From Nitrospina sp. (GTDB lineage Bacteria; Nitrospinota; Nitrospinia; Nitrospinales; VA-1): DNA of 41,899 nucleotides. A model generated the notes under the pieces. The model saw nothing but the letters and a program-made list of their open reading frames with translations. It searched no databases and was not told where the DNA came from. Within the stretch, counting starts at the first letter, position 1. Each line of letters starts with the position of its first letter. Of the stretch, positions 2,946-37,930 are shown piece after piece. Location: contig JABIXH010000296.1 in NCBI GenBank assembly GCA_018664975.1, forward strand, positions 1 to 41,899. The letters run 5' to 3'. Made by a program: the position numbers and the translations under genes.

Positions 2946-3721
2946 GTTTTCCGGTAACTTCTTATAAGTCGATGGTTCTGATTTTCCTGTGCGTGTCGCT
3001 ATATTTTGCGGTGCCTGCGTTGACTCAGGAATTAGAGACCATGGTTACGGATGATATGGTCTTGATCCAGGGGGGAACTTTCAAAAGAGGCTGTGATCGC
3101 TTTGGACCTCAACATGGAGCTCCGGAACAGAAGATCCATTTGGATGATTTTTGGATTGATAAATATGAGGTCACTAATAAGAAATTTGAAAATATTTTTC
3201 CGGAACATTTTTTGCGGCGTAGTATTTTTTCGGATTGTGACAATTGCCCGGTTTCAAAAATCAGTTGGTATGAAGCGGCAGATTATTGTCACTTGATTGG
3301 TAAATCACTTCCCAGTGAAGCGCAGTGGGAAAAAGCGGCAGGAAGTGGAAAAGGTTGTGAGTTTCCATGGGGCAAAGGATTCGATCTGGTGAACCCACCT
3401 GCCAGAGGTGGCTTGAAGCTAAACGATAAAGCCTCTCCTGTGGGCGCATTTCCGCCAAACCAGAATGGACTTTATGATACGGCCGGAAATATGTGGGAAT
3501 GGGTTAGCGATTGGTTTTCAATCAGGTTTTATTACGCCGATATACTGCATAATCCCAGAGGCCCCATGAAAGGCCTAATGAAAGTTAGAAGAGGGGGGTC
3601 CTGGTCAGACTCTGTCATAGCTATGAATTCGGGTTATCGGGACTGGAGCTATCCGTTATCTAGAGGATTTAATGATATTGGATTCCGTTGCGCTATTAAC
3701 TTGAAAACTCTAGGGGAATAA
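2942..3721 (+). CDS. secreted FGE-sulfatase (SUMF1/EgtB/PvdO) domain protein lacking the FGE catalytic Cys pair
   Basis: N-terminal signal-like helix, then family motifs (FWIDKYEVTN, WEWVSDW, RGGSW, GFRCA). The GTG start overlaps the metF stop (GTGA). Confidence 0.85.
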   Translation: MSFPVTSYKSMVLIFLCVSLYFAVPALTQELETMVTDDMVLIQGGTFKRGCDRFGPQHGAPEQKIHLDDFWIDKYEVTNKKFENIFPEHFLRRSIFSDCDNCPVSKISWYEAADYCHLIGKSLPSEAQWEKAAGSGKGCEFPWGKGFDLVNPPARGGLKLNDKASPVGAFPPNQNGLYDTAGNMWEWVSDWFSIRFYYADILHNPRGPMKGLMKVRRGGSWSDSVIAMNSGYRDWSYPLSRGFNDIGFRCAINLKTLGE

Positions 3722-3723
3722 TT

Positions 3724-4452
3724 TTGATCACCCAGGTTAAGTTGGATTATATCAATCGAGTCATTGATGAATGCCTGGACGGTGAGGCATTGGAGTTGAA
3801 AGGTAAATTTCTCGGGGATGAAGGGGTGGAGGCTCTGGTTCAAACCAATCGTATTCTTGATGTCGAAAATCTGGATCTGTCGCGTAATAAACTGACCTGG
3901 CGCGGAGCGCACCATTTGTTTCACTGCCACTTGTTTAAAAATCTAAAACGATTGTATCTGGGCGAAAATAATATTTCTGACAAGGGTGTAAAGGAACTAC
4001 CCTCTGCTAATTTTGCAGAAAACCTCTCCCTCCTGGACCTACGCTATAATAATATTGGTCCTGCCGGTGGGTTGGCAGTGGTTCAATCTGAGAAATTTAG
4101 AAAGCTTCAGGTTTTGATTTTTCAGGAAAATCCTGTGGGGGATGAAACTCTGATAGAACTGGCAAAAGCTCCTACCTTTGCTAACTTGAGAAAGCTGAAT
4201 TTCTACAGAACGGATATAACCCCGAAAGGCATTAAGGTTCTAGCCAAATCCAAAGTGTTGCAAAGGGTTAAACAACTGAACATTGCTAGAAATTATCTTC
4301 ATTTGGAATCTGCCCGACTCTTGGGGAATACCAAGACACTGACCAATATTGAAACCTTGCTCATGTATGACACAGGAATAGGTGATGCCGGGGTCAAGGC
4401 CATCATGGACTCAGAGTCATTTTCTAAACTTAAAACCCTAAGAGTAACCTGA
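3724..4452 (+). CDS. leucine-rich repeat protein, ribonuclease-inhibitor (RNI)-type repeats
   Basis: About 28-aa repeats of the form LxxLxLxxNxIGxxGxxxLa. TTG start 2 nt after the upstream stop. No signal peptide seen. Confidence 0.8.
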   Translation: MITQVKLDYINRVIDECLDGEALELKGKFLGDEGVEALVQTNRILDVENLDLSRNKLTWRGAHHLFHCHLFKNLKRLYLGENNISDKGVKELPSANFAENLSLLDLRYNNIGPAGGLAVVQSEKFRKLQVLIFQENPVGDETLIELAKAPTFANLRKLNFYRTDITPKGIKVLAKSKVLQRVKQLNIARNYLHLESARLLGNTKTLTNIETLLMYDTGIGDAGVKAIMDSESFSKLKTLRVT

Positions 4453-4483: not shown

Positions 4484-6382
4484 ATGGAGAGTAAACTAAA
4501 TAAGTCCTCCTGGTATTTTGGCGCTGGATTTCTTGCGTTCCTCACGTTTACCGCCTATTTTCCCACATTTCAAAATTTTTATATTTGGGATGACGATCTC
4601 TATTTAACGCAAAATCCATACTTAAACGATTTTGAAGGTTTGAAGCGTTTGTGGTTGGATATGAATGCCAGGCTCCAATACTATCCAATGGTGTTTACCA
4701 GTTTTTGGGTTGAACACAAAATTTGGGGGCTAGACCCGATCGGTTACCATATTGACAATACTTTGATCCATTGTATGAATGTCATTTTGCTTTGGCGAAT
4801 TCTGGTTTTTTTGGATATTAGAGGAAGTTGGTTGGGAGCGGCAATATTTGCTATTCATCCTGTTCAGGTTGAATCGGTAGCATGGATTACGGAAAGAAAA
4901 AATTTGCTTTCCGGTTTCTTTCTTTTCCTTTCCCTTTATTCATTTTTACAGTTCTATAAACCTCATCTTTCATCGGAATCAAATATAAGAAATACTAAAA
5001 ACTGGCCTATCTATGGATTGTCACTATTGTTATTTCTTTGCGCGCTATGGAGTAAAACTGTAACTTGCACATTGCCTGCCGTTATTCTCCTGATATTTTG
5101 GTGGAAAGAAAACCGTATTTGTAAGGAAGTAATTTTTCTGACTATTCCCTATTTTATTATTGGATTATGTTTTGGTTTGTTAACCGCCTGGTTGGAAAAA
5201 TATAACGCAGGTGCGTTAGGGCCAGAATGGGAATTTTCATTTTTGGATAGGTTTCTTATTGCGGGCAGGGCGTTATGGTTTTATATGGGTAAGTTGTTTT
5301 TTCCCTCGCCCCTTATTTTTATTTATCCTCGTTGGATCATTGATGATTCAATTTGGTGGCAATATATTTATCCTTTGGCCTTTTTAGCACTGATTTATAT
5401 TTTGTGGTTGTTGAGAAATATAATAGGGCGAGGAACTCTAGCAGGAATTTTATTGTTTTCCGGCACACTTTTTCCTGCATTGGGATTTTTTAATGTTTAT
5501 CCCATGCTGTTTTCTTTTGTCGCAGATCATTTCCAATACCTTGCTTGTATTGGAGTCATTGTACTTTTCTCAAATGGTCTGATTAGAGTGTTGGACCGGT
5601 TGCAACCTTTTTTGCACTGGGCAACTGTAATAAGCCTTTTATTGGTATTGGGGAGTTTGACTTGGTTTCAAAGCCATATATACAAAAATGCCTTTTCGTT
5701 GTGGACGGATACGATTAACAAGAATCCGGGTGCTTGGTTGGCGCATAATAATTTAGGGGTGGAGTATGAAAAAATGGGAAGGTTGAGCCTGGCCATCCAC
5801 TCCTTTGAGTCTTCCTTGCAGTACAAATCTGATTTTCATTTGGCACATTATAACCTAGGTAATATTTATAAAAAACTAGGCCAATATGAAGATTCTGTGA
5901 GTCCTTATAAAAATGCGTTAAAGATAAACCCCAAATATTATCAAGCACATTTTAATCTAGGTTATTCCTATCAGTCCTTGGGGAAGTTAGAGGATTCAAT
6001 AGAATCATATGAAAAGGCGTTAAAGATTAACCCGCAATTTTTTAAGGCCCAATTTAACCTTGGTAATGCTTATCGAGATTTAGGGCGGTTAGAGGAGTCG
6101 GTAAAATCTTACGAAAGGGCGTTAATCACTATCCCTGGTCATTTAACGAGCTTGGTCAATATGGGAAAGGTATTAAGTCAATTAAATAAAAATCAACTGG
6201 CTATTAACGCTATAAGTAGGGCAATAGAATTGAATCCTGACAATATAAGCGCTCACTACAATTTGGCGGTTATATATATTAAATCTGGAGAATTAGAAAA
6301 AGCCAGGGTGGAATTTGAAAGTGTCTTGCGGCTAGATCCTGACAATCTGGAAACTCAGAATGCACTTAATAAGATGAATTAA
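4484..6382 (+). CDS. polytopic membrane protein with C-terminal TPR array, TMTC/PMT_2-like (GT-C fold glycosyltransferase-like)
   Basis: About 400 aa of multiple TM helices with an acidic first-loop motif (YIWDDDLY). A DUF1736-like stretch follows (HPVQVESVAWITERKNLLS), then about six 34-aa TPR repeats (AHYNLGNIYKKLGQYEDS...). Confidence 0.7.
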   Translation: MESKLNKSSWYFGAGFLAFLTFTAYFPTFQNFYIWDDDLYLTQNPYLNDFEGLKRLWLDMNARLQYYPMVFTSFWVEHKIWGLDPIGYHIDNTLIHCMNVILLWRILVFLDIRGSWLGAAIFAIHPVQVESVAWITERKNLLSGFFLFLSLYSFLQFYKPHLSSESNIRNTKNWPIYGLSLLLFLCALWSKTVTCTLPAVILLIFWWKENRICKEVIFLTIPYFIIGLCFGLLTAWLEKYNAGALGPEWEFSFLDRFLIAGRALWFYMGKLFFPSPLIFIYPRWIIDDSIWWQYIYPLAFLALIYILWLLRNIIGRGTLAGILLFSGTLFPALGFFNVYPMLFSFVADHFQYLACIGVIVLFSNGLIRVLDRLQPFLHWATVISLLLVLGSLTWFQSHIYKNAFSLWTDTINKNPGAWLAHNNLGVEYEKMGRLSLAIHSFESSLQYKSDFHLAHYNLGNIYKKLGQYEDSVSPYKNALKINPKYYQAHFNLGYSYQSLGKLEDSIESYEKALKINPQFFKAQFNLGNAYRDLGRLEESVKSYERALITIPGHLTSLVNMGKVLSQLNKNQLAINAISRAIELNPDNISAHYNLAVIYIKSGELEKARVEFESVLRLDPDNLETQNALNKMN

Positions 6383-7103: not shown

Positions 7104-7379
7104 AAATTCTGGGGAAATATGTGTAAAGTTAAAAATAAAACAATATATTTATCTTGAGATTCCGGGAATGGGTGACTGTTTGCTTTGAGAAACTCAATAA
7201 TTAGATGATGTTTCAGCCCTTTGGTTACAGATTTATTTGAGAAGGTTTTGCAGGAGAAATTCTATTTATTCCGGCATTTTAGCTCCCATCCAAAGCACTA
7301 AATAATAAAGGTTAAGTCCTATTTCAGTTTCACCGAAAAAGTAAAAGACAGCCTATTTTTTACCGGAGCCTCCTGATCC

Positions 7380-10300
7380 ATGAAATTTAAAATTCTTTCC
7401 TTTAATTGGCACGAACCTTATCTTTGTTTACTCGCAAGACTTGGTTATGAATTCCAAATTATAGAACCTGAAGTTGCTCCCGGTCATTACAGGCGATGGG
7501 ATAAAAATATGCGCCCGGTTCCAGAAAACGTGCGCTTGATTTCAATGGCAACTGCTCAGGAAATGCTGGAACTCGGCGAATTTGATCTCATTATCGCACA
7601 CAATATAAAAGATTTGATAGCCGTTAAGGATTACTCTCTGCCTAAAATTATCGTGTTTCACAACTGTTTAACAACAGAAATTGAACTGGGTAAAGCCAAG
7701 GTTTGTCGGAAAGAGTATTTGGAAAAAATCGATTTTCTTCTGGAGGGCGTACAAAAAGTATTTATCTCGGAGAAAAAGCGCCAAGACTGGGGGGCAAGCG
7801 GAGAAGTAATTTTACCTGGTCTTGATATCTCAGATTATGGTGGCTATAGAGGCGAGAGCGAGAGGGTTTTGCAGGTGGGGAATATGTTGCAAGAACGCGA
7901 TTTGATGATGGGCTATTCAGTCAGTAAAAGAATCATTGGAACCCACCCCTTAACGACTCTTGGTTTAAACCCAAGTATTCCAGGCTCGAGGCTGTCAGAG
8001 GGATTTCAGGACCTGATAGAAAATTTCAGGAGTTCCAGAGTTTTTATTAATACTACCGTTGAAGAGTTTGAGGATGGATACAATTTAAGTATGCTTGAGG
8101 CTATGGCCACTGGAATGCCAGTGATCAGTTCAGCGAATAAATCCTCTCCCATAATAGATGGAAAGAACGGTTATATTTCTAATGACATAAAATATTTAAA
8201 CCAGCGAATTGATTTTCTGTTAAGGAACCCAGATGAAGCCAGAAAGCTGGGGGAAAAAGCAAAAGAAACTGTGAAGGAGAAATTTCCATTAACACGATTT
8301 CTCCAGTCATGGCGCAGGGTGATTGAAAAATCAGCCTTAGACTATTTAGAACGAACGGTGATCAATTTAAAAAATACCAACCAACCTTTTAAGGAAAAAA
8401 TCCGAAAAAATATTTTAATGGATTTTGTGTCCTATCCTGCGACCACCGCCTATTTTCTGGAAAGAGCCTTCAGGCAAAAGCACAATGTAATAACTTGCGG
8501 GTCTCAAATAAACGATCAAATTATTAAACTATGGAATCTTGAAGACCTTAATTGGGAAATCACTCCACAGGATTTATACAGAGGAAACACGACTCCTTTA
8601 CAAAAGGTTATGGAAGAATTGCCAGAAGGGTGGCAACCGGATTTCTACCTTTGGATTGAAACGGGATTGAGTGATATCCCATCAGATCTAGGCAGTTTCG
8701 ATCTGCCGAAGGTTTGCTATCTCATAGATACTCATATCCACTATGAGCGACACCTTGAAATTGCCGAAAATTTTGATTTTGTTTTTTTGGCGCAGAAGGC
8801 GTACGTGCCGCAAATGGTAAGGGCAGGCATTAAGAATGTCATGTGGTTGCCCTTGGCATGTGATCCCGAAATTCATGCCAAGGTTGAGGTTGAAAAAGAA
8901 TTTGATGTGGGCTTTGTCGGTTCAATTTCTTTAACACCAGACCGCCGACGAAATCTTTTGGAGAGACTACAGAAACAGTTTGACCTGAAACCTCAACGAA
9001 AATTCATGAATGAAATGGCGGAGCATTATAGTAAGTCACATATCATTTTTAATAACGCCATTAATAACGATCTTAATATGCGGGTATTCGAGGCTTTATG
9101 TAGCGGCAGTCTGCTGGTTACCGATTCAGCACCAGGAAGTGGTCTGGATGAATTATTTTTGGATAAGAAACATTTAGTGATTTACCAGGATGAGAATCTT
9201 GAAGAAGTGGTTTCTTATTATTTGCAAAATAAAGAACACCGGGAGCGCATCTCAATCGAGGGTAGAAAGGAAGTTTTGGCTCGGCACACTTATGGGCACC
9301 GCACCGATGCCATAATAAAATTTTTAAACGAAAATATCACTGGTGTTGAAAAAGAAAAACCGGCCTCGATGGAGGAAAAACCCATTTCCTATTATGAGAA
9401 TATCAGAAACGATTTGATTCCTCTTGTTCCCAGCGATGCCAATTGTATTTTAGAAATTGGCTGTGGGTCAGGAAGGACTGGTCTGGAACTCAAAAAACAA
9501 TATGGAGCTTTTGTCGCAGGAGTTGAATTGAACCCCGTTGCCGCAAATCTTGCCAATGAGGTATTGGATGATGTGGTTCAGGGAAATATTGAATCCATCG
9601 ACCTGCCTTATGGTTCTGGATCCTTTGACTGCATAATGTTTGCGGACGTTCTAGAGCATTTGGTAGATCCTCTTTCTGTTTTGATGAAAGTACGTCCTTT
9701 ATTGAAATATGGAGGGACTGTGGTAACCAGCATTCCCAATGTCCAATTCCATGGAGTCATTCATCAATTGGTGGAAGGGAATTGGACCTATGAAAAAGAA
9801 GGAATTCTTGATGAAACTCATCTCCGTTTTTTTACCTATAAAGAAATTGGAAAAATGTTTGTTAAAGCGGGTTACTCCATTCAGCATATTGAGGAGGTAA
9901 TAGATCCTCAATATGAACAATTTTCTTTAAGTAATACCAACGTCCTCAATTTTGGCAGGACGCAAATAAAAGATTTATCTCCAGAGGAATTTAAGCAGTT
10001 TTTTGTTTTCCAATATTTATTAAGAGCAAAACCAACTAACGTTAATGAGAATGAGGTAAATGATATGTTTCAAAAGGAAGAAACATTGTTTGAAATTGAC
10101 AACATTTTATTAGACGCGTCCAAGGCCTCTGAAGCAGGGGAGCATGAAACTGCATTAAAACTTTATACGGAAGTTATAAAACTATCTTCTGACAATGTTC
10201 AGGCATTGCTTGGAATGGGTAATACCAATATGAAACTTCAACTTCCTGATAAAGCGGAGGCCTTTTTTGAATTAGCTTGTTTAAAAGATCCCAATAACTC

Positions 10301-10763
10301 CAAGGTTTGGCAAGGGTTGGGATTACTGGCTCTTTATAAAAAAGATATTAAACGTGCAGATATTAGTTTTAATAAATCCCTGGAATGTGACCCCAGGAAC
10401 GATAAGGCATTATGTGGCCTGGGGATGTTGAGGGTTAATAGAGAAGACCTTGATGGGGCTGTTGAATATTTTTGTCGCGCTTTGGAAATTAATCCTGACA
10501 ATATTTCCGCTTGTAAATATCTTTTGGAGTTGTCCTATAAACTGGAAAGATTTGAGGCGATTGAAAGGCATTTAAATATATTCATGGAATTTCATCCCGG
10601 AAATCTCAATATGCTTTTTGCTTTAGCCGGGGTTCAGTACAAACTCGGAAAACTTGAAGAATCGATTAATAACCTGGAATGCATTCTTACCTTGGACCCA
10701 GAACACGAATCGGCAATTGAATTAATTGAAACTGTTAAATCTGATCTAGTTCCTAGTAAATAA
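7380..10763 (+). CDS. 1127-aa four-module protein: GT1/GT4-like glycosyltransferase, CgeB-like (DUF3880/Glyco_trans_1_2) glycosyltransferase, class I SAM methyltransferase and TPR array
   Basis: Module 1 carries EDGYNLSMLEAMATGMPVISS. Module 2 carries FDVGFVGS...DLNMRVFEALCSGSLLVTD. Module 3 carries ILEIGCGSGRTG...FADVLEHLVDP...THLRFFT. The C-terminal 230 aa are TPR repeats. Confidence 0.8.
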   Translation: MKFKILSFNWHEPYLCLLARLGYEFQIIEPEVAPGHYRRWDKNMRPVPENVRLISMATAQEMLELGEFDLIIAHNIKDLIAVKDYSLPKIIVFHNCLTTEIELGKAKVCRKEYLEKIDFLLEGVQKVFISEKKRQDWGASGEVILPGLDISDYGGYRGESERVLQVGNMLQERDLMMGYSVSKRIIGTHPLTTLGLNPSIPGSRLSEGFQDLIENFRSSRVFINTTVEEFEDGYNLSMLEAMATGMPVISSANKSSPIIDGKNGYISNDIKYLNQRIDFLLRNPDEARKLGEKAKETVKEKFPLTRFLQSWRRVIEKSALDYLERTVINLKNTNQPFKEKIRKNILMDFVSYPATTAYFLERAFRQKHNVITCGSQINDQIIKLWNLEDLNWEITPQDLYRGNTTPLQKVMEELPEGWQPDFYLWIETGLSDIPSDLGSFDLPKVCYLIDTHIHYERHLEIAENFDFVFLAQKAYVPQMVRAGIKNVMWLPLACDPEIHAKVEVEKEFDVGFVGSISLTPDRRRNLLERLQKQFDLKPQRKFMNEMAEHYSKSHIIFNNAINNDLNMRVFEALCSGSLLVTDSAPGSGLDELFLDKKHLVIYQDENLEEVVSYYLQNKEHRERISIEGRKEVLARHTYGHRTDAIIKFLNENITGVEKEKPASMEEKPISYYENIRNDLIPLVPSDANCILEIGCGSGRTGLELKKQYGAFVAGVELNPVAANLANEVLDDVVQGNIESIDLPYGSGSFDCIMFADVLEHLVDPLSVLMKVRPLLKYGGTVVTSIPNVQFHGVIHQLVEGNWTYEKEGILDETHLRFFTYKEIGKMFVKAGYSIQHIEEVIDPQYEQFSLSNTNVLNFGRTQIKDLSPEEFKQFFVFQYLLRAKPTNVNENEVNDMFQKEETLFEIDNILLDASKASEAGEHETALKLYTEVIKLSSDNVQALLGMGNTNMKLQLPDKAEAFFELACLKDPNNSKVWQGLGLLALYKKDIKRADISFNKSLECDPRNDKALCGLGMLRVNREDLDGAVEYFCRALEINPDNISACKYLLELSYKLERFEAIERHLNIFMEFHPGNLNMLFALAGVQYKLGKLEESINNLECILTLDPEHESAIELIETVKSDLVPSK

Positions 10764-10772
10764 AATATTCTT

Positions 10773-12566
10773 ATGGATTTTTTTGAGCAAAATTTAAAAC
10801 ATTTACGTCTCTACGACCCCGATCTGGCAGAACGTGTTGCTCTACAGCCTTTTCCTGAGAATGTAAGCGTTATCCAATCAAAAGATGGGTTTCCCGTTCC
10901 CAGAATTGCCGGGGCATTATTGCATAGCCAATACCGCCCGATTGAAGAAGGGAAGAAGGCCATTGAAAAATTCGAGTTTGACCCGGAACAAAAAACAGTT
11001 ATATACGGATTAGGATTTGGTTACCACATCCAGTCTTTACTGCTTAAGTGCCCCGGGAAGTTGATCGTTGTAGAGCCATTGATGACCCTATTCAGGGCAT
11101 TTATGACATCCATGGATATACAGCCTTTTATATCCCGGGTACGCTTTAGGATTGGGGAAACGCCGGCATGCCTTATTTCCCGATTGGAACCGGATTGTTG
11201 GAATATTTTCAAGCATCTTCCCTCCATTAGAATTGGGGAAACCTACTACAACAGGCTGGATGAAGGACTTGAAGTAAGAAACCTCCTTCAACTGCGCTCT
11301 CTCAAAGTGATGATTGTTAACCCCATTTATGGAGGTTCACTGCCAACGGCCCATCATTGTGCTGGAGCTTTCAGGAATTTAGGACATGAGGTTGCTACGG
11401 TAGATTGTGAAGAATTCGCGCAAGGATTTTTTTCTTTAAAGAGTGTGACTCGAAACCCTGATAATTCTGAAATTCTTTCCCGAAATTTTATGAGTTTTAT
11501 GGGTGAAATAGCCGCCGCCAAAGCCGCAGAATTTAAACCGGATATTATTTTGGCACTCGCTCAGGCCCCTCTGGCCCCGGAGGCCATTCAAAAACTTAAG
11601 GCACTGGGAGTTCCAGTCGTTTTCTGGTTCGTGGAAGATTTTAGGACTTTGACTTATTGGGATGAAATAGCCACTTCTTATGACCATCTTTTTACATTGC
11701 AGGCCGGTGAATTCCACGATTCATTAAGATCTAAGGGAGTAAGGGATTGTTATTACCTGCCGCAGGCTTGCTTCCCGGACATTCACAAACCTATAGATGA
11801 GACGGACAGGGATACAGCTAGGTATAAGGCTGATTTATCTTTTATGGGGGCCGCTTATCATAATCGGGTTCAATCTTTTCCACGCCTGATGAATTTTGAC
11901 TTTAAAATTTGGGGAACAGGTTGGAATTTAGAAACACCGTTGGGACGCTTAGTTCAAAATAATAATGAACGATTGTCTACAACTGAAATAGTTAATATTT
12001 ATAATGGAGCCAAAATAAACCTCAACCTGCATTCTTCTACCTATCATTATGGCATTAATCCTGATGGAGATTTTTTGAACCCACGCACTTTTGAAATTTC
12101 TGCTTGTCAAGGATTCCAACTGGTGGATTCTCGTAAAGATTTATCGCGAATGTTTAAAGTTGGTGAGGAGGTAATCACGTTTGATACGCTTGATCAAATG
12201 CGGGATCAAATCGAATATTATCTTTCTAATCCTGAGGAAAGAAATACAATTGCTTTAAAATCCTACCACCGAGTTCTGAATGAACATACCATGGAACATC
12301 GTATGCAGGAGTTATTGCTACATGTTTTTCTGGATCGCAAATCGGCTCTTGATTCCATCAGAGATACTCAATGTGATCCTCTAGATTATTGCATTGAACA
12401 AGCTGGTGAAAATTCTGAATTGGGAAAATATTTGAATCAGTTTAAGGGCCAAGTCCCATTTTCTTTAAAGACGGTGATTGATCATATCCATCAGGGAGAG
12501 GGAGCTCTGGATCAAAAGGAGACTCTTTTTTTGATGTTGGATCAGATTGTAAAGGAGAAAGTTTGA
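10773..12566 (+). CDS. Maf-like N-terminal module fused to a CgeB-like (DUF3880/Glyco_trans_1_2) glycosyltransferase
   Basis: The N-terminus (FFEQNLKHLRLYDPDLAERV...VIYGLGFGYHIQSLL...LIVVEP) resembles motility-accessory-factor/DUF115 proteins. The C-terminal half (DLSFMGAAY, YNGAKINLNLHS, NPRTFEISACQGFQLVD) resembles CgeB-type GTs. Confidence 0.65.
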   Translation: MDFFEQNLKHLRLYDPDLAERVALQPFPENVSVIQSKDGFPVPRIAGALLHSQYRPIEEGKKAIEKFEFDPEQKTVIYGLGFGYHIQSLLLKCPGKLIVVEPLMTLFRAFMTSMDIQPFISRVRFRIGETPACLISRLEPDCWNIFKHLPSIRIGETYYNRLDEGLEVRNLLQLRSLKVMIVNPIYGGSLPTAHHCAGAFRNLGHEVATVDCEEFAQGFFSLKSVTRNPDNSEILSRNFMSFMGEIAAAKAAEFKPDIILALAQAPLAPEAIQKLKALGVPVVFWFVEDFRTLTYWDEIATSYDHLFTLQAGEFHDSLRSKGVRDCYYLPQACFPDIHKPIDETDRDTARYKADLSFMGAAYHNRVQSFPRLMNFDFKIWGTGWNLETPLGRLVQNNNERLSTTEIVNIYNGAKINLNLHSSTYHYGINPDGDFLNPRTFEISACQGFQLVDSRKDLSRMFKVGEEVITFDTLDQMRDQIEYYLSNPEERNTIALKSYHRVLNEHTMEHRMQELLLHVFLDRKSALDSIRDTQCDPLDYCIEQAGENSELGKYLNQFKGQVPFSLKTVIDHIHQGEGALDQKETLFLMLDQIVKEKV

Positions 12567-14314
12567 TCGTGGCTAAAAATATATTAATTCTAAGTATGAC
12601 CCGAATGGGAGATATGATTCAGACAACTCCCCTGATTAAGGGTTTGAAAGAAAAATATCCCTCAGCCAAGATCACTCTTTTGGTCACCAGTGATTTTTCC
12701 AGTGCCGTGTCTCTGATACCTGAGGTCGATGAATCTATAGTTGTGAATTTGAGACAGTTTGATAATCAAGAAGTTTGGGAAGACCTTTCCTGGATTAAAA
12801 TATACCGTTATCTTGAAGATACATTGGGAGATATTAAAGGTAGAAGTTTTGATTTGCTAGTAAATTTAAGCCATTCAAAATTCAGTGCCCTTATGGTTCG
12901 TTATTTGGGAGCTAAAAATATAGTTGGCTTTTATTGTAACGATTTTGGAAATCGTATGACAGGCCACCCTTGGATGCAGTATTTCAGTGTAGAAATATTC
13001 AATCGTAACTATAATGAGTTTAATCTTGTTGAGATATTTTCAAGGAGTGGAGGTGTTGATGCAAAGGGTCGTTCCATTGCTGTGACCCCCTCGCACGATG
13101 AACTTTCACTTGGTACCTTAATTCCGCCTGAGTTCAATGAAGGCGAGGTCTTGATTGGTATTCAAGCCGGATCCAGTCTGGAAGGTCGGCGGTGGCCCGT
13201 GCAATCATTTGCGGCATTGGCTGATCAGTTAATAGAAAATATTAATGCGCGAATATTGATATTTGGTGTGGAGTCTGAAAATGCAGTGGCTGAAGATGTA
13301 TTAAGTTTTGTTGAAAATAAGGATAAGGTCGTAAACCTTGCCGGCAAAACAACCCTCAGTCAGTTATCGGGATTGTTGGAAAAATGCCAATATTTAGTCA
13401 CTAATGATACCGGAACGATGCATTTGGCTGCGGCCTTGGGAACTAAAATCGTAGGACTCTTTTTTGCCCATGCGCATCCGTATGAAACGGCACCATTTTC
13501 TCCGGGGCATTTGATATTCCAGGCAAGAATTTCTTGTGCACCCTGTAGTTATGGAGTGCACTGCAACAATATAGTTTGTATTGACAAGGTAAACCCCCAA
13601 GACCTTTCTTCGGTGATTGAGAGTCATATAATAACTAAATCATGGGTTCTTCCTGAGCAAGTTAATACAAAATCTGAATTAAACGTATATGAAACCGTTT
13701 TTGATTTTGATGATAATTTCCAATTACGGCCTCTTGTAAAGCACAGGTTACAAATAGATGATATGTTCCGGACGGCCTATACCCTTTTGTGGAGGAATAG
13801 TCTTGACGAAAAAATGAAGGCAAATGATTTCGAATTCCTCATAAATGGGGTTTGCGAAAACTTGAATCGTGATTATGATTGTACTGATATAGATTCGGTG
13901 GATGAACAATTAGAAAAAAAATATTTAGCTTTAGAGGAGATTGTGAAACTTGCATTTAAAGGAAGGAAGCAATGTGGGAACCTCATCAGAGAAGTTTCTG
14001 GTATAAAGGGGAGTCCAGACAAAATTGCTCAGTCTAGTGCTGAAATTACACGCATTGATGAGAAGATTGAAGAATTGGGGCTTACTAACCCCGAATTGCG
14101 TCCTTTATCTGATATGTTCAGTAAAAGAAAAGAAAATTTTGCAGGTAACAATGTTTGTCTTTTGGCTATTGAAACCCGGAAGGAATACAATAATTTGATC
14201 GATGAATGTGAAAAGCTGAGTACTATTTTAAATAGTTGTCGGAAAAAATTGACGGGCACCAAGCCTTGCTATATTTCGCATGATTCCATTAATGTGGCGG
14301 TTCCCGGTAGGTAG
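12563..14314 (+). CDS. glycosyltransferase family 9 (heptosyltransferase-like) with a C-terminal extension of about 230 aa
   Basis: GT9 hallmarks: ILILSMTRMGDMIQTTPLIKGLKEKYP near the N-terminus and TNDTGTMHLAAALGTKIVGLF. The listed TTG start overlaps the upstream stop, and GTG at 12569 is an alternative. Confidence 0.8.
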   Translation: MIVAKNILILSMTRMGDMIQTTPLIKGLKEKYPSAKITLLVTSDFSSAVSLIPEVDESIVVNLRQFDNQEVWEDLSWIKIYRYLEDTLGDIKGRSFDLLVNLSHSKFSALMVRYLGAKNIVGFYCNDFGNRMTGHPWMQYFSVEIFNRNYNEFNLVEIFSRSGGVDAKGRSIAVTPSHDELSLGTLIPPEFNEGEVLIGIQAGSSLEGRRWPVQSFAALADQLIENINARILIFGVESENAVAEDVLSFVENKDKVVNLAGKTTLSQLSGLLEKCQYLVTNDTGTMHLAAALGTKIVGLFFAHAHPYETAPFSPGHLIFQARISCAPCSYGVHCNNIVCIDKVNPQDLSSVIESHIITKSWVLPEQVNTKSELNVYETVFDFDDNFQLRPLVKHRLQIDDMFRTAYTLLWRNSLDEKMKANDFEFLINGVCENLNRDYDCTDIDSVDEQLEKKYLALEEIVKLAFKGRKQCGNLIREVSGIKGSPDKIAQSSAEITRIDEKIEELGLTNPELRPLSDMFSKRKENFAGNNVCLLAIETRKEYNNLIDECEKLSTILNSCRKKLTGTKPCYISHDSINVAVPGR

Positions 14315-15828
14315 GAAGCCATATCCCCCTTTGCTTTCTCTTTTAAAAAACCATGTAGGAATTCGAGAGAGGCACCTCCCCCTGTGGAGACGAAAAAGTT
14401 TTTGGCGAAATAATTCCATAATTGGTATGCATCATTTTCAAGGAAGTCGATGGATATTTGATTGCGATTAATGGTCGGGTGAAATTGTTTTTCAATTTGA
14501 AGTTTGATCATTTTTTTTAATTCGGTAATTCCTATTTTGTTGAGAATTGCCGCAGAATCTCCTCCTCCAATAACTACAGACATTTTAGGATTTGATAGAG
14601 CTGATTGAAAAAGCAATTTTGCTAATTCCAAAGACCCTTCTGCATAATAACTGCAAGCAGGGTGGTCGTAGGCACCCAAGGGTCCGTTCCAGAATACATT
14701 TTCGATATCCTTGAAAAGATCTTCAAATTGAGCAATTGTTTTTTCTCCTAAATCCAACTGTAGCTCTTTGGAGAAGTCGGGCGAACTTTTATTTTCAAAA
14801 ATTGTGCTTTGAAAATCCGTGACTATTTTATAGTCTTCGGGTAAGCACAGGCTTACTTTGTTGACCTCAGCGAGTTCAATGATTTTTTCAGCGAGGTTGA
14901 TTTCGTTTAGAAGTTCTATGTTTTCATTATCGGCCTGGCTTTGTAATTTTGTGGGTAAGGTGTCTTTTTGAAAAGGTTTTAATAATTCCTTTTGTTGTTG
15001 GGCTAAAAGGAAAGCGTTGGCCATTTTTCCACCGATTAAAATGGTTTTAACTCCGGTAGAAACAAATTGTTTCAAAATTTCAATTTTATCCGATACCTTA
15101 GCTCCCCCTGCTACGACCAGGGTTTTTCTGGGCTTGGATAAAACTTTGCTGCCAAACTTCCCAAGACGGGCAATTTCTTCGTAAAGGAGAACACCTGATA
15201 CCACCGGTTTGCCTTTTCGCCGCATTAATTGAGGTAAAAGCTTAATGCTCTTGGTCACTCGATGACTACAGCCAAATGCGCAGTTTATATAGACATCCGC
15301 TATATCCGCCAATTGGGTGATAATTTCTGTACGGTAGATGTCTGTGTTCTTTGGGTCTAAAAGATATCGCAAATTAGGAAGAAATTTGATTCCACCTGGC
15401 GGTAAACGTTTATGCGATACAATTTCCAAAGAATGTTGCATATGGGAGTCAATCGTTTCAGGCGGAAAAATAGTGTAAGTGTCACCATAAATCCTGCGAA
15501 TCAAAGTGTCAAAATGAGAGGAAACAAATTGTATGTTGAAGATACCATCCCATCCAGAATGGTCTTTAGTTTTATGAGGTCGACCTAAGTGCGAACCTAT
15601 AATCATTCGACAGTCACCTTCTGTTAATTCATGAATTTTTCTGAAGGTGAGATCCAGAAAACGCCGGATTCGGGTATCATCTGCGACTCGATATAATCCT
15701 TTCGCGGTGGACCGCAAAGGAACGTTAAAATCACACCGGATAAATATAGTTTTGCCTCTTAAATCATCCGATTTCAATTCTGCCAATTGGGTCATTCCAA
15801 TTGAATTTGTCGAACTTGAGTTTGCCAT
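14269..15828 (-). CDS. pgk: phosphoglycerate kinase homologue, unusually long (519 aa) and divergent
   Basis: PGK motifs present: CDFNVPL, GSHLGRP, VVAGGAKVSDKI, LIGGKMANAF, FWNGPLG, VIGGGDSAA, STGGGASLEFL. AGGAA lies 6 nt before the ATG. Several insertions relative to the usual PGK of about 395 aa. Confidence 0.8.
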   Translation of the reverse strand: MANSSSTNSIGMTQLAELKSDDLRGKTIFIRCDFNVPLRSTAKGLYRVADDTRIRRFLDLTFRKIHELTEGDCRMIIGSHLGRPHKTKDHSGWDGIFNIQFVSSHFDTLIRRIYGDTYTIFPPETIDSHMQHSLEIVSHKRLPPGGIKFLPNLRYLLDPKNTDIYRTEIITQLADIADVYINCAFGCSHRVTKSIKLLPQLMRRKGKPVVSGVLLYEEIARLGKFGSKVLSKPRKTLVVAGGAKVSDKIEILKQFVSTGVKTILIGGKMANAFLLAQQQKELLKPFQKDTLPTKLQSQADNENIELLNEINLAEKIIELAEVNKVSLCLPEDYKIVTDFQSTIFENKSSPDFSKELQLDLGEKTIAQFEDLFKDIENVFWNGPLGAYDHPACSYYAEGSLELAKLLFQSALSNPKMSVVIGGGDSAAILNKIGITELKKMIKLQIEKQFHPTINRNQISIDFLENDAYQLWNYFAKNFFVSTGGGASLEFLHGFLKEKAKGDMASYLPGTATLMESCEI

Positions 15829-18359: not shown

Positions 18360-19094
18360 TCATCCGACAGATTTAGCACAACGAAAACCGGTGTCCCAGT
18401 ATCGCATTTGAGGAGGGGAAAAATTTCGGTAAGGTAGCATTGTGAACTGTTTTAAAAACCCGTGTTCACGTTTATTAATTGAACCGCCACGGGTCACCTT
18501 GAATTTCTCCCCAAAGTTATTATCTTGCAGAATGGAGTTGGGGTAGGGTTTGTACCAGCTTGCGGTCCATTCCGAAACATTTCCATTCATTCCCCATATA
18601 CGATAGGTGCTGACATCTCCCTCAAGGGCGTTTACCGGTTGTACTTGTTTGCCGAAATTAGCAGTGCCCTTTTCGAAATCGTTGCCCCATACGAAAAGTC
18701 GGTTGTCACTCCCTCGGGCCGCTTTTTCCCATTCATACTCTAACGGCAGACGCTTACCTGCCCAAAGACAATAGGCATCGGCTTCGTACCAACTGATTCC
18801 GCTGACTGGTAAGTTCATTTGCTGAACAGGGTATTGTGCCTGGGGTTTAAACTTCATAAACTCCTCATAGGTGACCTCAAACTGGTCTATATAAAAGGCC
18901 TTCAATAAATATTGTTGCTCCGGTTGTGCATTGAGGGCAGATGTTTTTTCCGACATGAATTGCAGGATTTTACTCTCGGGATTGAGACCCAATGTGAATT
19001 CGCCTTCAGGAATGAGGACCATCCCTATTTGTTTCTGGGCTTCGCAAGAAACAAAGAGTATTGATAGGAGTGCAATCAGGAGTATTCTATTCAA
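18360..19094 (-). CDS. FGE-sulfatase (SUMF1/EgtB/PvdO) domain lipoprotein lacking the FGE catalytic Cys pair
   Basis: Lipobox-like signal (LLSILFVSCEA). Family motifs FYIDQFEVTYEEF, SEWTASW, TRGGS, GFRCA. Its stop lies 3 nt from the convergent rne stop. Confidence 0.85.
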   Translation of the reverse strand: MNRILLIALLSILFVSCEAQKQIGMVLIPEGEFTLGLNPESKILQFMSEKTSALNAQPEQQYLLKAFYIDQFEVTYEEFMKFKPQAQYPVQQMNLPVSGISWYEADAYCLWAGKRLPLEYEWEKAARGSDNRLFVWGNDFEKGTANFGKQVQPVNALEGDVSTYRIWGMNGNVSEWTASWYKPYPNSILQDNNFGEKFKVTRGGSINKREHGFLKQFTMLPYRNFSPPQMRYWDTGFRCAKSVG

Positions 19095-34350: not shown

Positions 34351-34363
34351 CAGGGAGTTTATT

Positions 34364-35681: not shown

Positions 35682-35746
35682 AGATTTCATCAAATAGAAT
35701 CATCCAAATAAATCGGCATTAAAGCATCCTCTTGAGGAGAATTTCG

Positions 35747-37228: not shown

Positions 37229-37247
37229 TTTGGGAAAGGTTAACAGG

Positions 37248-37874: not shown

Positions 37875-37930
37875 ATAAACTTTGTATATCCTGGTTGAAC
37901 TTTTGAAATCTATTTTTGAGGAGCGGTATC

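What the first reader, a model, noticed from the sequence alone, without database searches (positions are those of the whole stretch)
7380..14314. Seven-kb glycosylation block built from unusual domain fusions
Three consecutive, tightly packed genes encode at least four glycosyltransferase modules. These are GT1/GT4-like, two CgeB-like DUF3880/Glyco_trans_1_2 modules, and GT9. They also encode a SAM methyltransferase, a Maf/DUF115-like N-module and a TPR array.

The 1127-aa GT/GT/MT/TPR fusion is an uncommon architecture. CgeB-like and Maf-like modules are known from protein or surface-layer glycosylation (spore crust, flagellin), not from classical LPS synthesis. No flagellin or other substrate gene is present.

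Together with the TMTC-like GT-C/TPR protein at 4484-6382, this could be a protein-directed glycosylation and methylation pathway with TPR-mediated substrate recognition.
Basis: partly seen in the sequence, partly recalled or inferred. Interest (0 to 1): 0.65.

Follow-up and report, generated by a model that had tools for sequence, protein, structure and literature searches.

The report
Displaced flagellin glycosylation operon in Nitrospina
Three tightly packed genes of a marine nitrite-oxidising bacterium (Nitrospinota) encode soluble sugar- and methyl-adding enzymes that most likely decorate the flagellar filament protein; the enzyme combination has not been studied, and it sits behind a flagellar-type promoter.

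Summary
ORFs 7380-10763 (1127 aa), 10773-12566 (597 aa) and 12563-14314 (583 aa) carry the stated domains. One correction: the "Maf/DUF115-like" part is only the Maf N-terminal domain, not the DUF115 catalytic domain.

The 1127-aa fusion is real. More than 120 full-length homologue clusters exist in independent Nitrospinota assemblies.

This is not an LPS or EPS operon, and the neighbouring membrane/TPR gene (4484-6382) is not a conserved partner. Three lines of evidence point to flagellin glycosylation:
- In Nitrospirota, Desulfobacterota and Latescibacterota, the orthologous G2-G3 pair (often with G1-like modules) lies inside flagellar clusters. In two loci it sits directly upstream of flagellin. 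Elsewhere it lies next to motAB, PilZ and CheY-like genes, or next to true Maf genes.
- A sigma-28 (FliA)-type promoter, TTAAG-N16-CCGAAAA at 7312-7339, precedes G1. The motif is present in 44 of 48 Nitrospinota loci.
- G2 is a Maf N-domain fused to a CgeB-type GT-B. G1 ends in TPRs, as the flagellin-binding FlmG and Maf-1 do.

All three proteins lack transmembrane helices.

Verdict: a new variant of a known kind of system, the flagellin glycosylation island. It is relocated into housekeeping context in Nitrospinaceae. Donors, acceptor sites and the actual glycan are inferred, not shown.

The parts
7312..7339 (+). Sigma-28 (FliA)-type promoter, TTAAG-N16-CCGAAAA, at -68 to -41 from the G1 start codon. 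A GGAG ribosome-binding site lies at 7366-7369.
   Evidence: In alignment A3 the -35 and -10 blocks are invariant while the spacer varies. The motif [TC][AT]AAG-N15-17-CCGNNAA lies within 150 nt upstream of G1 in 44 of 48 Nitrospinota loci. Background is 0.005 per 150 nt, and 46 of all 91 matches in 2.8 Mb sit at this one position. In the window there are 2 matches against 0.22 expected. The same motif form precedes flagellin genes in L071 and L060.
7380..10763 (+). G1: 1127-aa soluble fusion protein, GT4-like GT-B / CgeB-like GT-B / SAM methyltransferase / TPR.
   Evidence: ORF; Pfam and NCBIfam domains; no TM segments; more than 120 full-length homologue clusters.
7380..8369 (+). G1 module 1 (aa 1-330): GT4-like glycosyltransferase with a D-x7-E variant of the EX7E region.
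   Evidence: Glycos_transf_1 and Glyco_trans_1_4, aa 208-296. Partial matches to GT4 families EpsE, TreT and BshA. Weak Glyco_transf_4 hit for the N-lobe. The motif was read from the translation.
8397..9344 (+). G1 module 2 (aa 340-655): CgeB-like glycosyltransferase (DUF3880 + Glyco_trans_1_2).
   Evidence: Pfam. Paralogous to the G2 catalytic module: 24% identity, E 1e-12.
9351..10028 (+). G1 module 3 (aa 658-883): class I SAM-dependent methyltransferase.
   Evidence: Methyltransf_23/11/12/25. Matches PDB 3cc8, a putative methyltransferase, at E 1.4e-49. Weaker matches go to a D-glucose O-methyltransferase (6uv6) and other small-molecule O-methyltransferases.
10092..10760 (+). G1 module 4 (aa 905-1127): TPR array, the putative acceptor-binding (flagellin-binding) domain.
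   Evidence: TPR_1/2/8/19; PDB TPR hits including the OGT TPR domain. The function is inferred by analogy with the Maf-1 and FlmG TPR domains.
10773..12566 (+). G2: 597-aa soluble protein. A Maf N-terminal domain (aa 1-180, nt 10773-11312) is fused to a CgeB-like GT-B (aa ~181-520, nt 11313-12332), followed by a helical tail.
   Evidence: Pfam. hhalign of the G2 family against true Maf proteins gives probability 98.6%, E 6e-16, for aa 1-180. A weak profile hit goes to Maf PDB 5mu5. AlphaFold model pLDDT 70.5. The top Foldseek hit is Maf 5mu5, followed by GT4 GT-B enzymes. No MptE-like domain.
12563..14314 (+). G3: 583-aa soluble protein. A GT9 glycosyltransferase domain (aa 1-360, nt 12563-13642) is followed by a beta-hairpin and a helical-bundle C-domain (aa 361-583, nt 13643-14311).
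   Evidence: Pfam GT9. NCBIfam heptosyltransferase I/II/III hits all fall below their curated cut-offs. PDB 3tov and 1psw. Model pLDDT 80.1. Foldseek gives WaaF/WaaC/GT9 at TMt 0.72-0.77 and TibC lower. The catalytic TRMGD and NDTG.MH motifs are invariant.
13535..13579 (+). Invariant four-cysteine cluster in the G3 C-lobe, C325-x2-C328-x5-C334-x4-C339: a putative metal knuckle.
   Evidence: Invariant in 18 Nitrospinota sequences and in 14 orthologues from other phyla. It lies in a low-confidence loop of the model, aa 323-338. The analogy is to the TibC iron finger, Cys339/342/358/370 (PMC4358343).

Best explanation
The block is a three-gene, sigma-28-driven operon for cytoplasmic O-glycosylation of flagellin, or possibly another late flagellar export substrate, with a short methylated glycan.

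**Proposed mechanism.**
- Newly made flagellin monomers are captured in the cytoplasm, before export through the flagellar type III system, by the non-catalytic modules. These are the C-terminal TPR array of G1, the Maf-type N-domain of G2, and perhaps the Cys4 knuckle and helical domain of G3.
- One of the four GT-B modules primes Ser/Thr residues. The modules are the G1 GT4-like module, the G1 CgeB-like module, the G2 CgeB-like module and the G3 GT9 domain.
- The other modules extend the glycan. The GT9 domain may add a heptose or a related sugar.
- The G1 methyltransferase O-methylates or caps the glycan.
- No sugar-nucleotide synthesis genes belong to the block, so housekeeping donors are used.

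**Evolutionary setting.** In Nitrospinaceae the operon has moved away from the flagellar genes into a conserved housekeeping neighbourhood, between an MsrP-like gene and pgk. It has kept a flagellar-class promoter.

**Shown.** Domain content, soluble nature, conservation, flagellar synteny of the orthologues, and the conserved promoter motif.

**Inferred.** The acceptor, the donors, the order of the steps and the target of methylation.
For: 1. **Flagellar synteny of the orthologues.**
   - G2+G3 orthologues (36-41% identity, full length) exist in Nitrospirota, Desulfobacterota, Latescibacterota and groundwater Nitrospinota. Most of these loci carry G1-like GT4/CgeB/MT modules upstream.
   - In L071 the order is G2-G3-small ORF-flagellin-FlaG-FliD-FliS. 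In L060 it is G2-G3-small ORF-FlgN-flagellin-FliD-FliS-?-flagellin.
   - In L059, L063, L065, L066, L067, L068, L074 and L080 the block is followed by a CheY-like regulator, PilZ, MotA and MotB.
   - True Maf genes (MptE-like) lie beside G2 in L064, L076, L077, L079 and L054.
2. **Promoter.**
   - A sigma-28-type motif precedes G1 in 44 of 48 Nitrospinota loci, with conserved -35 and -10 blocks and a variable spacer.
   - Canonical sigma-54 motifs precede G1 orthologues in other lineages.
   - Both promoter classes drive the adjacent flagellin genes in L071 and L060.
3. **Acceptor-recognition modules.**
   - The G2 N-domain is homologous to the Maf N-domain (Foldseek top hit 5mu5).
   - G1 ends in TPRs, as does Maf-1, whose TPR domain binds flagellin. 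FlmG is a further TPR precedent (my own knowledge; the paper was only listed).
4. **Soluble proteins.** None of the three has a TM helix, which fits cytoplasmic protein glycosylation.
5. **Gene fusion.** In L060, G3 is fused to a second Maf-N + CgeB module, which ties the G2 and G3 functions together.
6. **Flagella in the phylum.** The Nitrospinae core genome encodes flagellar assembly and chemotaxis genes (PMC5029188). N. gracilis has 97 COG-N motility genes and a G3 orthologue (P0290).
7. **Core-genome conservation.** Identity of 50-90% in a fixed position is unlike hypervariable O-antigen or EPS loci.
Against: - No flagellar gene lies in the window, or within +/-10 kb of the block in any Nitrospinaceae locus.
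- The presence of fliA and fliC in this particular genome was not checked here.
- The promoter is a sequence match only.
- Characterised GT9 enzymes act mostly on LPS, and CgeB acts on the spore crust. No member of the G2 or G3 families has been characterised, so donor and acceptor are inferred.
- The small helical ORF that follows G3 in other phyla is missing here.
- Flagellin glycans with heptose are not known to me.
Confidence: 0.62

Rival explanations
1. The block is a sigma-28-co-regulated protein glycosylation system whose target in Nitrospinaceae is not flagellin. After the operon left the flagellar cluster, the target could be another exported or cytoplasmic protein, for example the syntenic LRR protein, an adhesin, or another flagellar export substrate such as a hook-associated protein.
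For: The operon is physically separated from flagellar genes in every Nitrospinaceae locus. An LRR gene is conserved 3-6 kb upstream within Nitrospinota. TPR domains are generic protein binders. Cultured Nitrospina have not been seen to swim.
Against: The LRR gene and the other flanking genes do not accompany the block in other phyla, whereas flagellin and motor genes do. The Maf-type N-domain is known only from flagellin glycosyltransferases. The retained flagellar-class promoter argues for continued use within the flagellar programme.
Confidence: 0.17
2. The block consists of ordinary envelope-glycan enzymes. A GT9 heptosyltransferase plus GT4-type transferases and a methyltransferase would build LPS core, or an O-antigen or EPS-like polymer with a methyl cap. 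This is the pattern of ABC-transporter-dependent O-antigen systems or S-layer glycan systems (WbdD- or WsaE-like, from my own knowledge).
For: G3 has a GT9 fold closest to WaaF and WaaC, and public annotations call it an LPS heptosyltransferase. Fusions of glycosyltransferase, methyltransferase and a helical 'ruler' domain occur in O-antigen chain terminators (my own knowledge). The G3 C-terminal helical domain could be such a ruler.
Against: All NCBIfam heptosyltransferase scores are below their curated cut-offs: 106.9 against 134.6, 90.9 against 170.2, and 90.7 against 185.3. G3 carries about 230 extra residues and a Cys4 cluster that WaaC and WaaF lack. The window has no wzm/wzt, wzx/wzy, initiating phosphoglycosyl transferase, Kdo transferase or lipid A gene; the only ABC pair is FtsE/FtsX. 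The flagellar context and promoters are unexplained by this model. Strong sequence conservation is atypical for O-antigen genes.
Confidence: 0.12
3. The block synthesises a cytoplasmic methylated oligo- or polysaccharide. This would be analogous to mycobacterial methylmannose or methylglucose polysaccharides and unrelated to protein modification.
For: All three proteins are soluble and no export machinery is present. Foldseek of G2 hits the methylmannose-polysaccharide mannosyltransferase 7qsg among GT4 enzymes. A methyltransferase is fused to the glycosyltransferases.
Against: The 7qsg hit is one of many generic GT4 GT-B matches with similar scores. This model does not explain the TPR domain, the Maf N-domain, the sigma-28 and sigma-54 promoters, or the flagellin-adjacent position of the orthologues.
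Confidence: 0.05

Closest known systems
Maf (motility accessory factor) flagellin glycosyltransferases, with or without the adaptor GlfM (Campylobacter, Aeromonas, Shewanella, Magnetospirillum; PDB 5mu5)
   Same: The G2 N-terminal 180 aa are homologous to the Maf N-domain (hhalign 98.6%; Foldseek top hit 5mu5). Both are cytoplasmic and both are encoded in flagellar clusters, as the G2 orthologues are. Maf-1 uses a C-terminal TPR domain to bind flagellin, and G1 also ends in TPRs.
   Different: G2 lacks the MptE-like/DUF115 catalytic domain and carries a CgeB-type GT-B instead. No nonulosonic-acid (Pse/Leg) synthesis genes accompany the block in the window. In some distant loci a true Maf is present in addition to G2, so G2 does not simply replace it.
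FlmG, the bipartite TPR + glycosyltransferase flagellin glycosyltransferase of Caulobacter (PMC7591256)
   Same: Both are soluble modular enzymes in which a TPR domain recognises flagellin and a separate domain transfers the sugar. Both act before export (the paper was listed; its content is from my own knowledge).
   Different: FlmG has an N-terminal TPR domain and a single GT domain that transfers pseudaminic acid. G1 has a C-terminal TPR domain, two GT-B modules of other families and a methyltransferase.
BAHT protein heptosyltransferases TibC/Aah (PDB 4rap, 4rb4)
   Same: Both have a GT9-related GT-B fold and act on a protein acceptor in the cytoplasm. TibC has a four-cysteine metal finger inserted in the C-lobe that is needed for substrate recognition and assembly. 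G3 has an invariant Cys4 cluster in its C-lobe, and Foldseek does detect TibC (E 4e-7).
   Different: G3 is closer to WaaF and WaaC than to TibC. It lacks the TibC N-terminal beta-barrel, since the model starts directly with the Rossmann lobe. Its cysteine spacing differs and it has a helical C-domain. No autotransporter substrate is adjacent.
LPS heptosyltransferases WaaC/WaaF/WaaQ (GT9)
   Same: Same fold and the same catalytic motifs: an N-terminal GD and NDTG.MH.
   Different: G3 scores below all curated family cut-offs. It is 583 aa against about 330 aa, it has the Cys4 cluster and a helical domain, and its context is flagellar rather than LPS.
CgeB, the Bacillus subtilis spore-crust maturation glycosyltransferase (DUF3880 + Glyco_trans_1_2)
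   Same: The same Pfam domain pair appears in G1 module 2 and in G2. Both are presumed to glycosylate proteins of a surface structure.
   Different: Nitrospinota are Gram-negative bacteria that do not form spores (my own knowledge). Here the modules are fused to Maf-N or to GT4/MT/TPR, and they are linked to flagella. I found no paper connecting CgeB-type enzymes with flagellin.

Membership tests
Flagellin glycosylation island / cytoplasmic flagellin O-glycosylation system | Glycosyltransferase genes located within or beside flagellin or other flagellar genes | tested here: inconclusive
   Not met in the window or in any Nitrospinaceae locus. Met for the orthologues in other phyla: beside flagellin in L071 and L060, beside motAB/PilZ/CheY in 8 loci, and beside Maf in 5 loci.
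Flagellin glycosylation island / cytoplasmic flagellin O-glycosylation system | Expression from a flagellar-class promoter (sigma-28 or sigma-54) | tested here: met
   A sigma-28-type motif lies at 7312-7339 and is conserved in 44 of 48 Nitrospinota loci. Sigma-54 motifs occur in other lineages. This is sequence-level evidence only.
Flagellin glycosylation island / cytoplasmic flagellin O-glycosylation system | Soluble glycosyltransferases carrying an acceptor-recognition module (TPR, Maf-type domain or an adaptor) | tested here: met
   No TM helices; TPR array in G1; Maf N-domain in G2.
Flagellin glycosylation island / cytoplasmic flagellin O-glycosylation system | Flagellin actually carries an O-linked glycan that depends on these genes | not testable with these tools
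   Requires mass spectrometry and genetics.
Flagellin glycosylation island / cytoplasmic flagellin O-glycosylation system | Flagellin and fliA genes present in the same genome | not tested
   Only literature is available: the Nitrospinae core genome encodes flagella and chemotaxis (PMC5029188), and N. gracilis has 97 COG-N genes. The genome of this window could not be read beyond the contig.
Maf family (G2) | Maf N-terminal domain (PF20157) | tested here: met
   Pfam E 1e-6; hhalign 98.6%, E 6e-16.
Maf family (G2) | MptE-like/DUF115 catalytic domain (PF01973) | tested here: not met
   G2 has no PF01973 hit, whereas the true Maf of L064 scores E 3e-44. G2 carries DUF3880 + Glyco_trans_1_2 instead, so it is not a Maf.
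LPS heptosyltransferase WaaC/WaaF/WaaQ (G3) | Score above the curated family cut-off | tested here: not met
   TIGR02195 106.9 against 134.6; TIGR02201 90.9 against 170.2; TIGR02193 90.7 against 185.3; the PRK models fall far below.
LPS heptosyltransferase WaaC/WaaF/WaaQ (G3) | GT9 GT-B fold with a catalytic Asp and the nucleotide-sugar motif | tested here: met
   Foldseek TMt 0.72-0.77 to 1psw, 3tov and 2h1h. TRMGD and NDTG.MH are invariant.
LPS heptosyltransferase WaaC/WaaF/WaaQ (G3) | Single-domain protein of about 320-350 aa in an LPS-core gene context | tested here: not met
   583 aa, with a Cys4 cluster and a helical C-domain of about 220 aa. No LPS genes are nearby.
BAHT protein heptosyltransferases (TibC/Aah) (G3) | N-terminal beta-barrel, beta-hairpin thumb, iron finger, adjacent autotransporter substrate | tested here: not met
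   The model begins with the Rossmann lobe and has no barrel. The TibC Foldseek match is weaker than the WaaF match. A Cys4 cluster is present but with different spacing. No autotransporter gene is present.
CgeB-like glycosyltransferases (G1 module 2, G2) | DUF3880 + Glyco_trans_1_2 domain pair | tested here: met
   The two modules are paralogous.
ABC-transporter- or Wzy-dependent O-antigen/EPS/S-layer-glycan pathway | Initiating phosphoglycosyl transferase and an exporter (wzm/wzt or wzx/wzy) in the locus | tested here: not met
   None in the 41.9-kb window. The only ABC pair is FtsE/FtsX with an FtsX extracellular domain.
TMTC/PMT-type GT-C (neighbouring gene 4484-6382) | Recognisable GT-C membrane domain (PMT_2/DUF1736 or similar) | tested here: not met
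   No Pfam hit for aa 1-400 even at E<=1, and only TPR hits in the PDB. About 8 hydrophobic segments and a WDDD loop are compatible with GT-C, but that is only a resemblance.

The most novel reading that the evidence does not exclude
G3-type proteins (GT9 + Cys4 knuckle + helical domain) form hundreds of 50%-identity clusters across at least four phyla. They may be a second, previously unrecognised family of protein-directed GT9 transferases, possibly heptosyltransferases, dedicated to flagellin. Working with 'catalytic-domain-swapped Maf' enzymes (G2) and a GT/GT/MT/TPR megaenzyme (G1), they would build a methylated glycan free of nonulosonic acids on the flagella of major marine nitrite oxidisers. 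That would imply Nitrospina makes functional, glycosylated flagella in nature.
Probability: 0.3. Interest if true: 0.7.

Novelty: new variant of a known kind. Interest (0 to 1): 0.55.

Why it matters
- **Glycobiology.** Flagellin glycosylation is known mainly from Maf/Pse-Leg systems, FlmG, and a few GT2/GT4 enzymes in pathogens. This block defines a different enzyme set that has not been characterised: GT9 with an extra domain, a Maf N-domain fused to a CgeB-type catalytic domain, and a four-module GT/GT/MT/TPR protein. It is conserved across Nitrospinota, Nitrospirota, Desulfobacterota and Latescibacterota.
- **Annotation.** Hundreds of proteins now annotated as 'LPS heptosyltransferase' or 'spore maturation protein CgeB' would receive a testable function.
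- **Biology of Nitrospina.** Cultures have never been seen to swim. A strongly conserved operon behind a flagellar promoter argues that the flagellar programme is in use.
- **Genome annotation method.** A conserved promoter class can reconnect a displaced operon to its regulon.

Tried and rejected
- **Assembly-fusion or frameshift origin of the 1127-aa ORF.** Rejected: full-length homologues exist in more than 120 clusters.
- **GT-C/TPR partnership.** The gene is not syntenic beyond the closest relative. Its membrane half has no Pfam or PDB hit. A 24%-identical paralogue lies on the other side of the block in five lineages; this is left unexplained.
- **Sigma-54 motif in the window (TGGGTGACTGTTTGCTT at 7169).** It is not conserved in the window's own clade, so it is not claimed here. 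Canonical sigma-54 sites do exist in other lineages.
- **G3 C-terminal domain.**
  - No significant Pfam hit.
  - No profile hit in the PDB.
  - No similarity to Maf (hhalign probability 0.2%).
  - The whole-model Foldseek search is dominated by the GT-B part.
- **G2 sequence search of the PDB.** Nothing except a weak Maf hit.
- **Non-coding RNA upstream of G1.** No Rfam family and no tRNA anywhere in the window.
- **Internal terminators or promoters inside the block.** Nothing above shuffle expectation.
- **Literature.** No paper links CgeB-type or GT9 enzymes with flagellin glycosylation.
- **LPS/EPS reading.** No exporter or initiating transferase in the window.

Full report
**1. What is in the sequence**

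Three same-strand ORFs occupy exactly the reported coordinates:
- G1, 7380-10763, 1127 aa
- G2, 10773-12566, 597 aa
- G3, 12563-14314, 583 aa

The G1-G2 gap is 9 nt and G2 and G3 overlap by 4 nt, which is the packing of an operon. The 3' end of G3 overlaps the convergent pgk gene.

Pfam assigns the following:
- G1 has a GT4-type C-lobe (Glycos_transf_1 / Glyco_trans_1_4, aa 208-296). It also has a CgeB-type module (DUF3880 447-516 with Glyco_trans_1_2 544-646), a class I SAM methyltransferase (685-836) and a TPR array (917-1110).
- G2 has a short Maf_flag10_N hit (72-124) and a second CgeB-type module (284-515).
- G3 has Glyco_transf_9 in its first ~350 residues only.

Further details:
- The two CgeB-type modules are paralogues (24% identity, E 1e-12).
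- The methyltransferase matches the uncharacterised PDB entry 3cc8 at E 1.4e-49. It matches sugar and small-molecule O-methyltransferases more weakly.
- None of the three proteins has a hydrophobic segment compatible with a transmembrane helix, so all are predicted to be cytoplasmic.

First, G2 carries the Maf N-terminal domain, not the DUF115/MptE-like catalytic domain. Second, the 'TMTC-like GT-C' label for the neighbouring 4484-6382 protein cannot be verified. Its C-terminal TPRs are clear, but its polytopic N-terminal half has no Pfam hit even at E<=1 and no PDB relative.

**2. Organism and reality of the fusion**

Homologues of all three proteins are named Nitrospina, Nitrospinaceae or Nitrospinota wherever a name exists. 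One of them is a 'glycosyltransferase family 9 protein [Nitrospina gracilis]' (P0290).

The 1127-aa protein has more than 120 full-length homologue clusters at 49-85% identity. They come from independent assemblies, including megabase contigs. The fusion is a conserved gene, not a frameshift or an assembly artefact.

**3. Neighbourhood within Nitrospinota**

Across about 55 Nitrospinota loci the gene order is fixed: cytochrome c, Mrr-like, MTHFR, FGE-sulfatase-domain, LRR, a variable slot, MsrP-like (minus strand), then G1 G2 G3, then pgk (minus strand), RNase E/G, FGE-sulfatase-domain, HmuY-like, and FtsE/FtsX.

The block is thus a core-genome feature in a housekeeping setting. It is not a variable surface-polysaccharide island.

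The membrane/TPR gene occupies the variable slot only in the window and its nearest relative, L021. Other lineages carry CsgG-like or SLT genes there. A 24%-identical paralogue sits between pgk and RNase E/G in five other lineages. I leave that unexplained, but it is not a conserved partner of the block.

The window contains no flagellar, LPS, exporter or sugar-nucleotide pathway genes next to the block.

**4. The orthologous block in other phyla lies in flagellar gene clusters**

A genome-collection scan with a G2 family alignment returned full-length G2 relatives at 36-41% identity. They come from Nitrospirota, Desulfobacterales, Desulfarculaceae, Latescibacterota and groundwater Nitrospinota.

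In these loci G2 is again immediately followed by a G3 orthologue. Most loci carry G1-like GT4, CgeB and methyltransferase modules upstream.

The genes that recur beside the block in these distant loci are flagellar:
- **L071 (Desulfarculaceae):** G2, G3, a small helical ORF, flagellin, FlaG, FliD, FliS.
- **L060 (Latescibacterota):** G2, G3, a small ORF, FlgN, flagellin, FliD, FliS, an unassigned ORF, and a second flagellin.
- **Eight Nitrospirota and other loci:** the block is followed by a CheY-like receiver, a PilZ protein, MotA (with MotA_N), MotB (with the MotB plug) and a PAS histidine kinase.
- **Five loci:** a true Maf protein (MptE-like domain, E 3e-44) lies beside G2.

In L060, G3 is fused at its C-terminus to a second Maf-N + CgeB module. 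This gene fusion ties the two functions together.

**5. A flagellar-class promoter in the window itself**

The 276-nt region upstream of G1 contains TTAAGTCCTATTTCAGTTTCACCGAAAA at 7312-7339. This matches the sigma-28/FliA consensus, TAAAG-N15/16-(G)CCGATAA (the consensus is from my own knowledge).

The evidence that it is functional is as follows:
- In an alignment of nine close relatives, the two promoter elements are invariant while the spacer varies.
- The motif [TC][AT]AAG-N15-17-CCGNNAA lies within 150 nt upstream of G1 in 44 of 48 Nitrospinota loci. Two more loci are one mismatch away.
- The background rate is 0.005 per 150 nt. Of 91 matches in 2.8 Mb of loci, 46 are at this single position.
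- The window alone has 2 matches against 0.22 expected.

Several lineages have canonical sigma-54 motifs (TGGCA-N6-TTGC[AT]) 90-135 nt upstream of G1. These include the distant loci L059, L064, L066 and L074.

The same two promoter classes drive the flagellin genes that lie next to the orthologous blocks:
- Sigma-28 in L071: CTAAAGTTTTCCCCGGCCTGACCGATAT.
- Sigma-54 before the first flagellin of L060, and sigma-28 before the second.

The window's own sigma-54-like string at 7169 is not conserved, so I do not claim it.

**6. Module-level homology and structure**

*G2.* Profile-profile comparison aligns aa 1-180 with the N-terminal 190 residues of true Maf proteins (probability 98.6%, E 6e-16). 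The AlphaFold model (pLDDT 70.5) has Maf 5mu5 as its best Foldseek match, followed by GT4 GT-B enzymes. G2 is therefore a Maf in which the nonulosonic-acid-transferring catalytic domain is replaced by a CgeB-type GT-B.

*G3.*
- The model (pLDDT 80.1) has a GT9 fold closest to WaaF, WaaC and 3tov (TMt 0.72-0.77). TibC, the protein heptosyltransferase, matches further down the list.
- Its scores are below every curated LPS-heptosyltransferase cut-off.
- The catalytic TRMGD and NDTG.MH motifs are invariant.
- An invariant C-x2-C-x5-C-x4-C cluster sits in the C-lobe. It is conserved in orthologues from four phyla.
- TibC has a four-cysteine iron finger in its C-lobe that is required for assembly and for recognition of its protein substrate (PMC4358343). 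I note this as an analogy, not as shown homology.
- The last ~220 residues form a helical bundle with an invariant FxKRKEN motif and, in Nitrospinaceae, an invariant C-terminal VPGR. Its function is unknown.

An exhaustive search of 1.84 billion representative proteins finds 639 clusters at E<=1e-30. Most of the best 150 are full-length proteins of 540-600 aa. This is a large uncharacterised family that public annotation calls 'LPS heptosyltransferase'.

**7. Mechanistic reading**

Established precedents:
- Maf-type flagellin glycosylation takes place before chaperone binding and export through the flagellar type III system (PMC4065374, title and abstract listed).
- Acceptor specificity comes from a TPR domain in Maf-1 and in FlmG (my own knowledge), or from a small four-helix adaptor, GlfM.
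- Methyltransferases are common in flagellin glycosylation islands (PMC5109656).

By analogy, I propose the following. The G1 TPR array and the G2 Maf-type domain capture flagellin, possibly with help from the G3 accessory parts. One GT module primes Ser/Thr residues. The others extend the glycan. The G1 methyltransferase methylates it. Because no sugar-nucleotide genes belong to the block, housekeeping donors are used.

The shown steps are domain identity, solubility, conservation, flagellar synteny of the orthologues and the conserved promoter motif. Everything about donor, acceptor and order of action is inference.

Two published points make a flagellin substrate available. The Nitrospinae core genome encodes flagellar assembly and chemotaxis genes although motility has never been seen in culture (PMC5029188). 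N. gracilis has 97 genes in COG category N (PMC3578206).

**8. Rivals**

- A non-flagellin protein target that is still co-regulated with the flagellar programme remains possible, because the operon is physically detached from flagellar genes in Nitrospinaceae.
- The LPS/EPS reading has several problems. G3 fails the family cut-offs. It carries extra domains. The window has no exporter or initiating enzymes. This reading does not explain the flagellar context or the promoters.
- A cytoplasmic methylated polysaccharide would not need the TPR or Maf-type domains.

**9. Comparison with known systems and novelty**

The block works like a flagellin glycosylation island, but it is not a member of any characterised enzyme family of such islands:
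- G2 fails the Maf test because it has no MptE-like domain.
- G3 fails the LPS-heptosyltransferase and BAHT tests.
- G1 has no characterised counterpart.

Full-text searches of the open literature found no paper linking CgeB-type or GT9 enzymes to flagellin glycosylation.

I classify it as a new variant of a known kind of system.

**10. Limits**

- I could not read the rest of this genome to confirm fliA and fliC, or to test the promoter motif at other flagellar genes.
- I could not assign CAZy families.
- I could not isolate the G3 C-domain for a separate fold search.
- No biochemical evidence exists.

Confidence in the flagellin-glycosylation reading is about 0.6.

Noticed in passing
window 14269-15828 (-): The phosphoglycerate kinase is 519 aa. 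The Pfam PGK profile (379 positions) is spread over residues 22-493, so the protein carries about 100 extra residues as insertions. The long form (516-521 aa) is conserved in other Nitrospinota loci, and its 3' end overlaps the end of G3 by 46 nt.
   Followed up: partly
window 4484-6382 (+); L023 15177-16904 (-): A polytopic membrane protein (about 8 hydrophobic segments, WDDD loop near the N-terminus) with C-terminal TPRs, whose membrane half has no Pfam hit. It fills a variable slot upstream of the block only in the window and L021. A 24%-identical paralogue sits between pgk and RNase E/G in L023, L031, L036, L037 and L051. The recurrent proximity to the block is unexplained.
   Followed up: partly
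L066 13544-13978, L061 13663-14079, L071 13614-14054, L060 11565-12281 (and at least 10 other distant loci): A small helical ORF of about 140 aa with no Pfam hit and a conserved C-terminal motif, DW(I/V)xLxDL(I/V)xYEL. It immediately follows G3 orthologues in other phyla and sits directly before flagellin in L071. It might be a GlfM- or FliS-like adaptor. It has no counterpart in the window or in Nitrospinaceae loci.
   Followed up: partly
L060 7990-11562: In a Latescibacterota MAG the G3 orthologue is a 1190-aa fusion: GT9 + helical domain + a second Maf-N + CgeB-like module. Other long forms of 929-1393 aa appear in the representative search.
   Followed up: partly
window 7190-7240 (about 200-150 nt upstream of the G1 start): Two further conserved blocks lie upstream of the sigma-28-like promoter in the window's clade: TAAGATGA and TTGGTTACAAATTTATTT. 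They may be regulator binding sites, or the promoter of the divergent MsrP-like gene.
   Followed up: no
window 2930-2957 (+): A second match to the sigma-28-like pattern, TAAAGAATTCGCGTGAGTTTTCCGGTAA, lies at the end of the MTHFR gene, 12 nt before the FGE-sulfatase-domain gene that is followed by the LRR gene. By the strict pattern it is also present in L021. It may be chance, or conservation due to the coding sequence.
   Followed up: partly
window 35732-38833 (+) and 39119-41899 (+): A VWA-domain protein is followed by two CsgG-like lipoproteins. The second also hits the FlgT C-terminal domain (E 1.5e-6). After them comes an open frame of more than 900 aa, with a coiled-coil-rich N-terminal part, that runs off the end of the window and is therefore missing from the ORF list.
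   Followed up: partly
window 2942-3721 (+), 18360-19094 (-), 3724-4452 (+), 34337-35560 (+), 19087-19803 (-): Two FGE-sulfatase-domain proteins, two LRR proteins and a HmuY-like protein flank the block. The first FGE-LRR pair and the second FGE-HmuY pair are syntenic across Nitrospinota. Their function is unknown.
   Followed up: no
L008, L013, L044, L059, L066: Contigs 77-83% identical to the window's G2 are filed under 'Opitutia' (L008) and 'Neomarinimicrobiota' (L013) MAGs. A Nitrospina-like contig is filed under 'Nitrospirae' (L044). These are probably binning contaminants. Two loci titled 'Nitrospira japonica' are deep-mine MAGs (L059, L066).
   Followed up: no
L066 5934-7544; L059 2459-4819: Distant versions of the cluster carry extra enzymes that are absent from the window: a B12-binding radical SAM protein, a methyltransferase-GT2 fusion, and additional CgeB-like glycosyltransferases. 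This suggests more elaborate glycans in those lineages.
   Followed up: no
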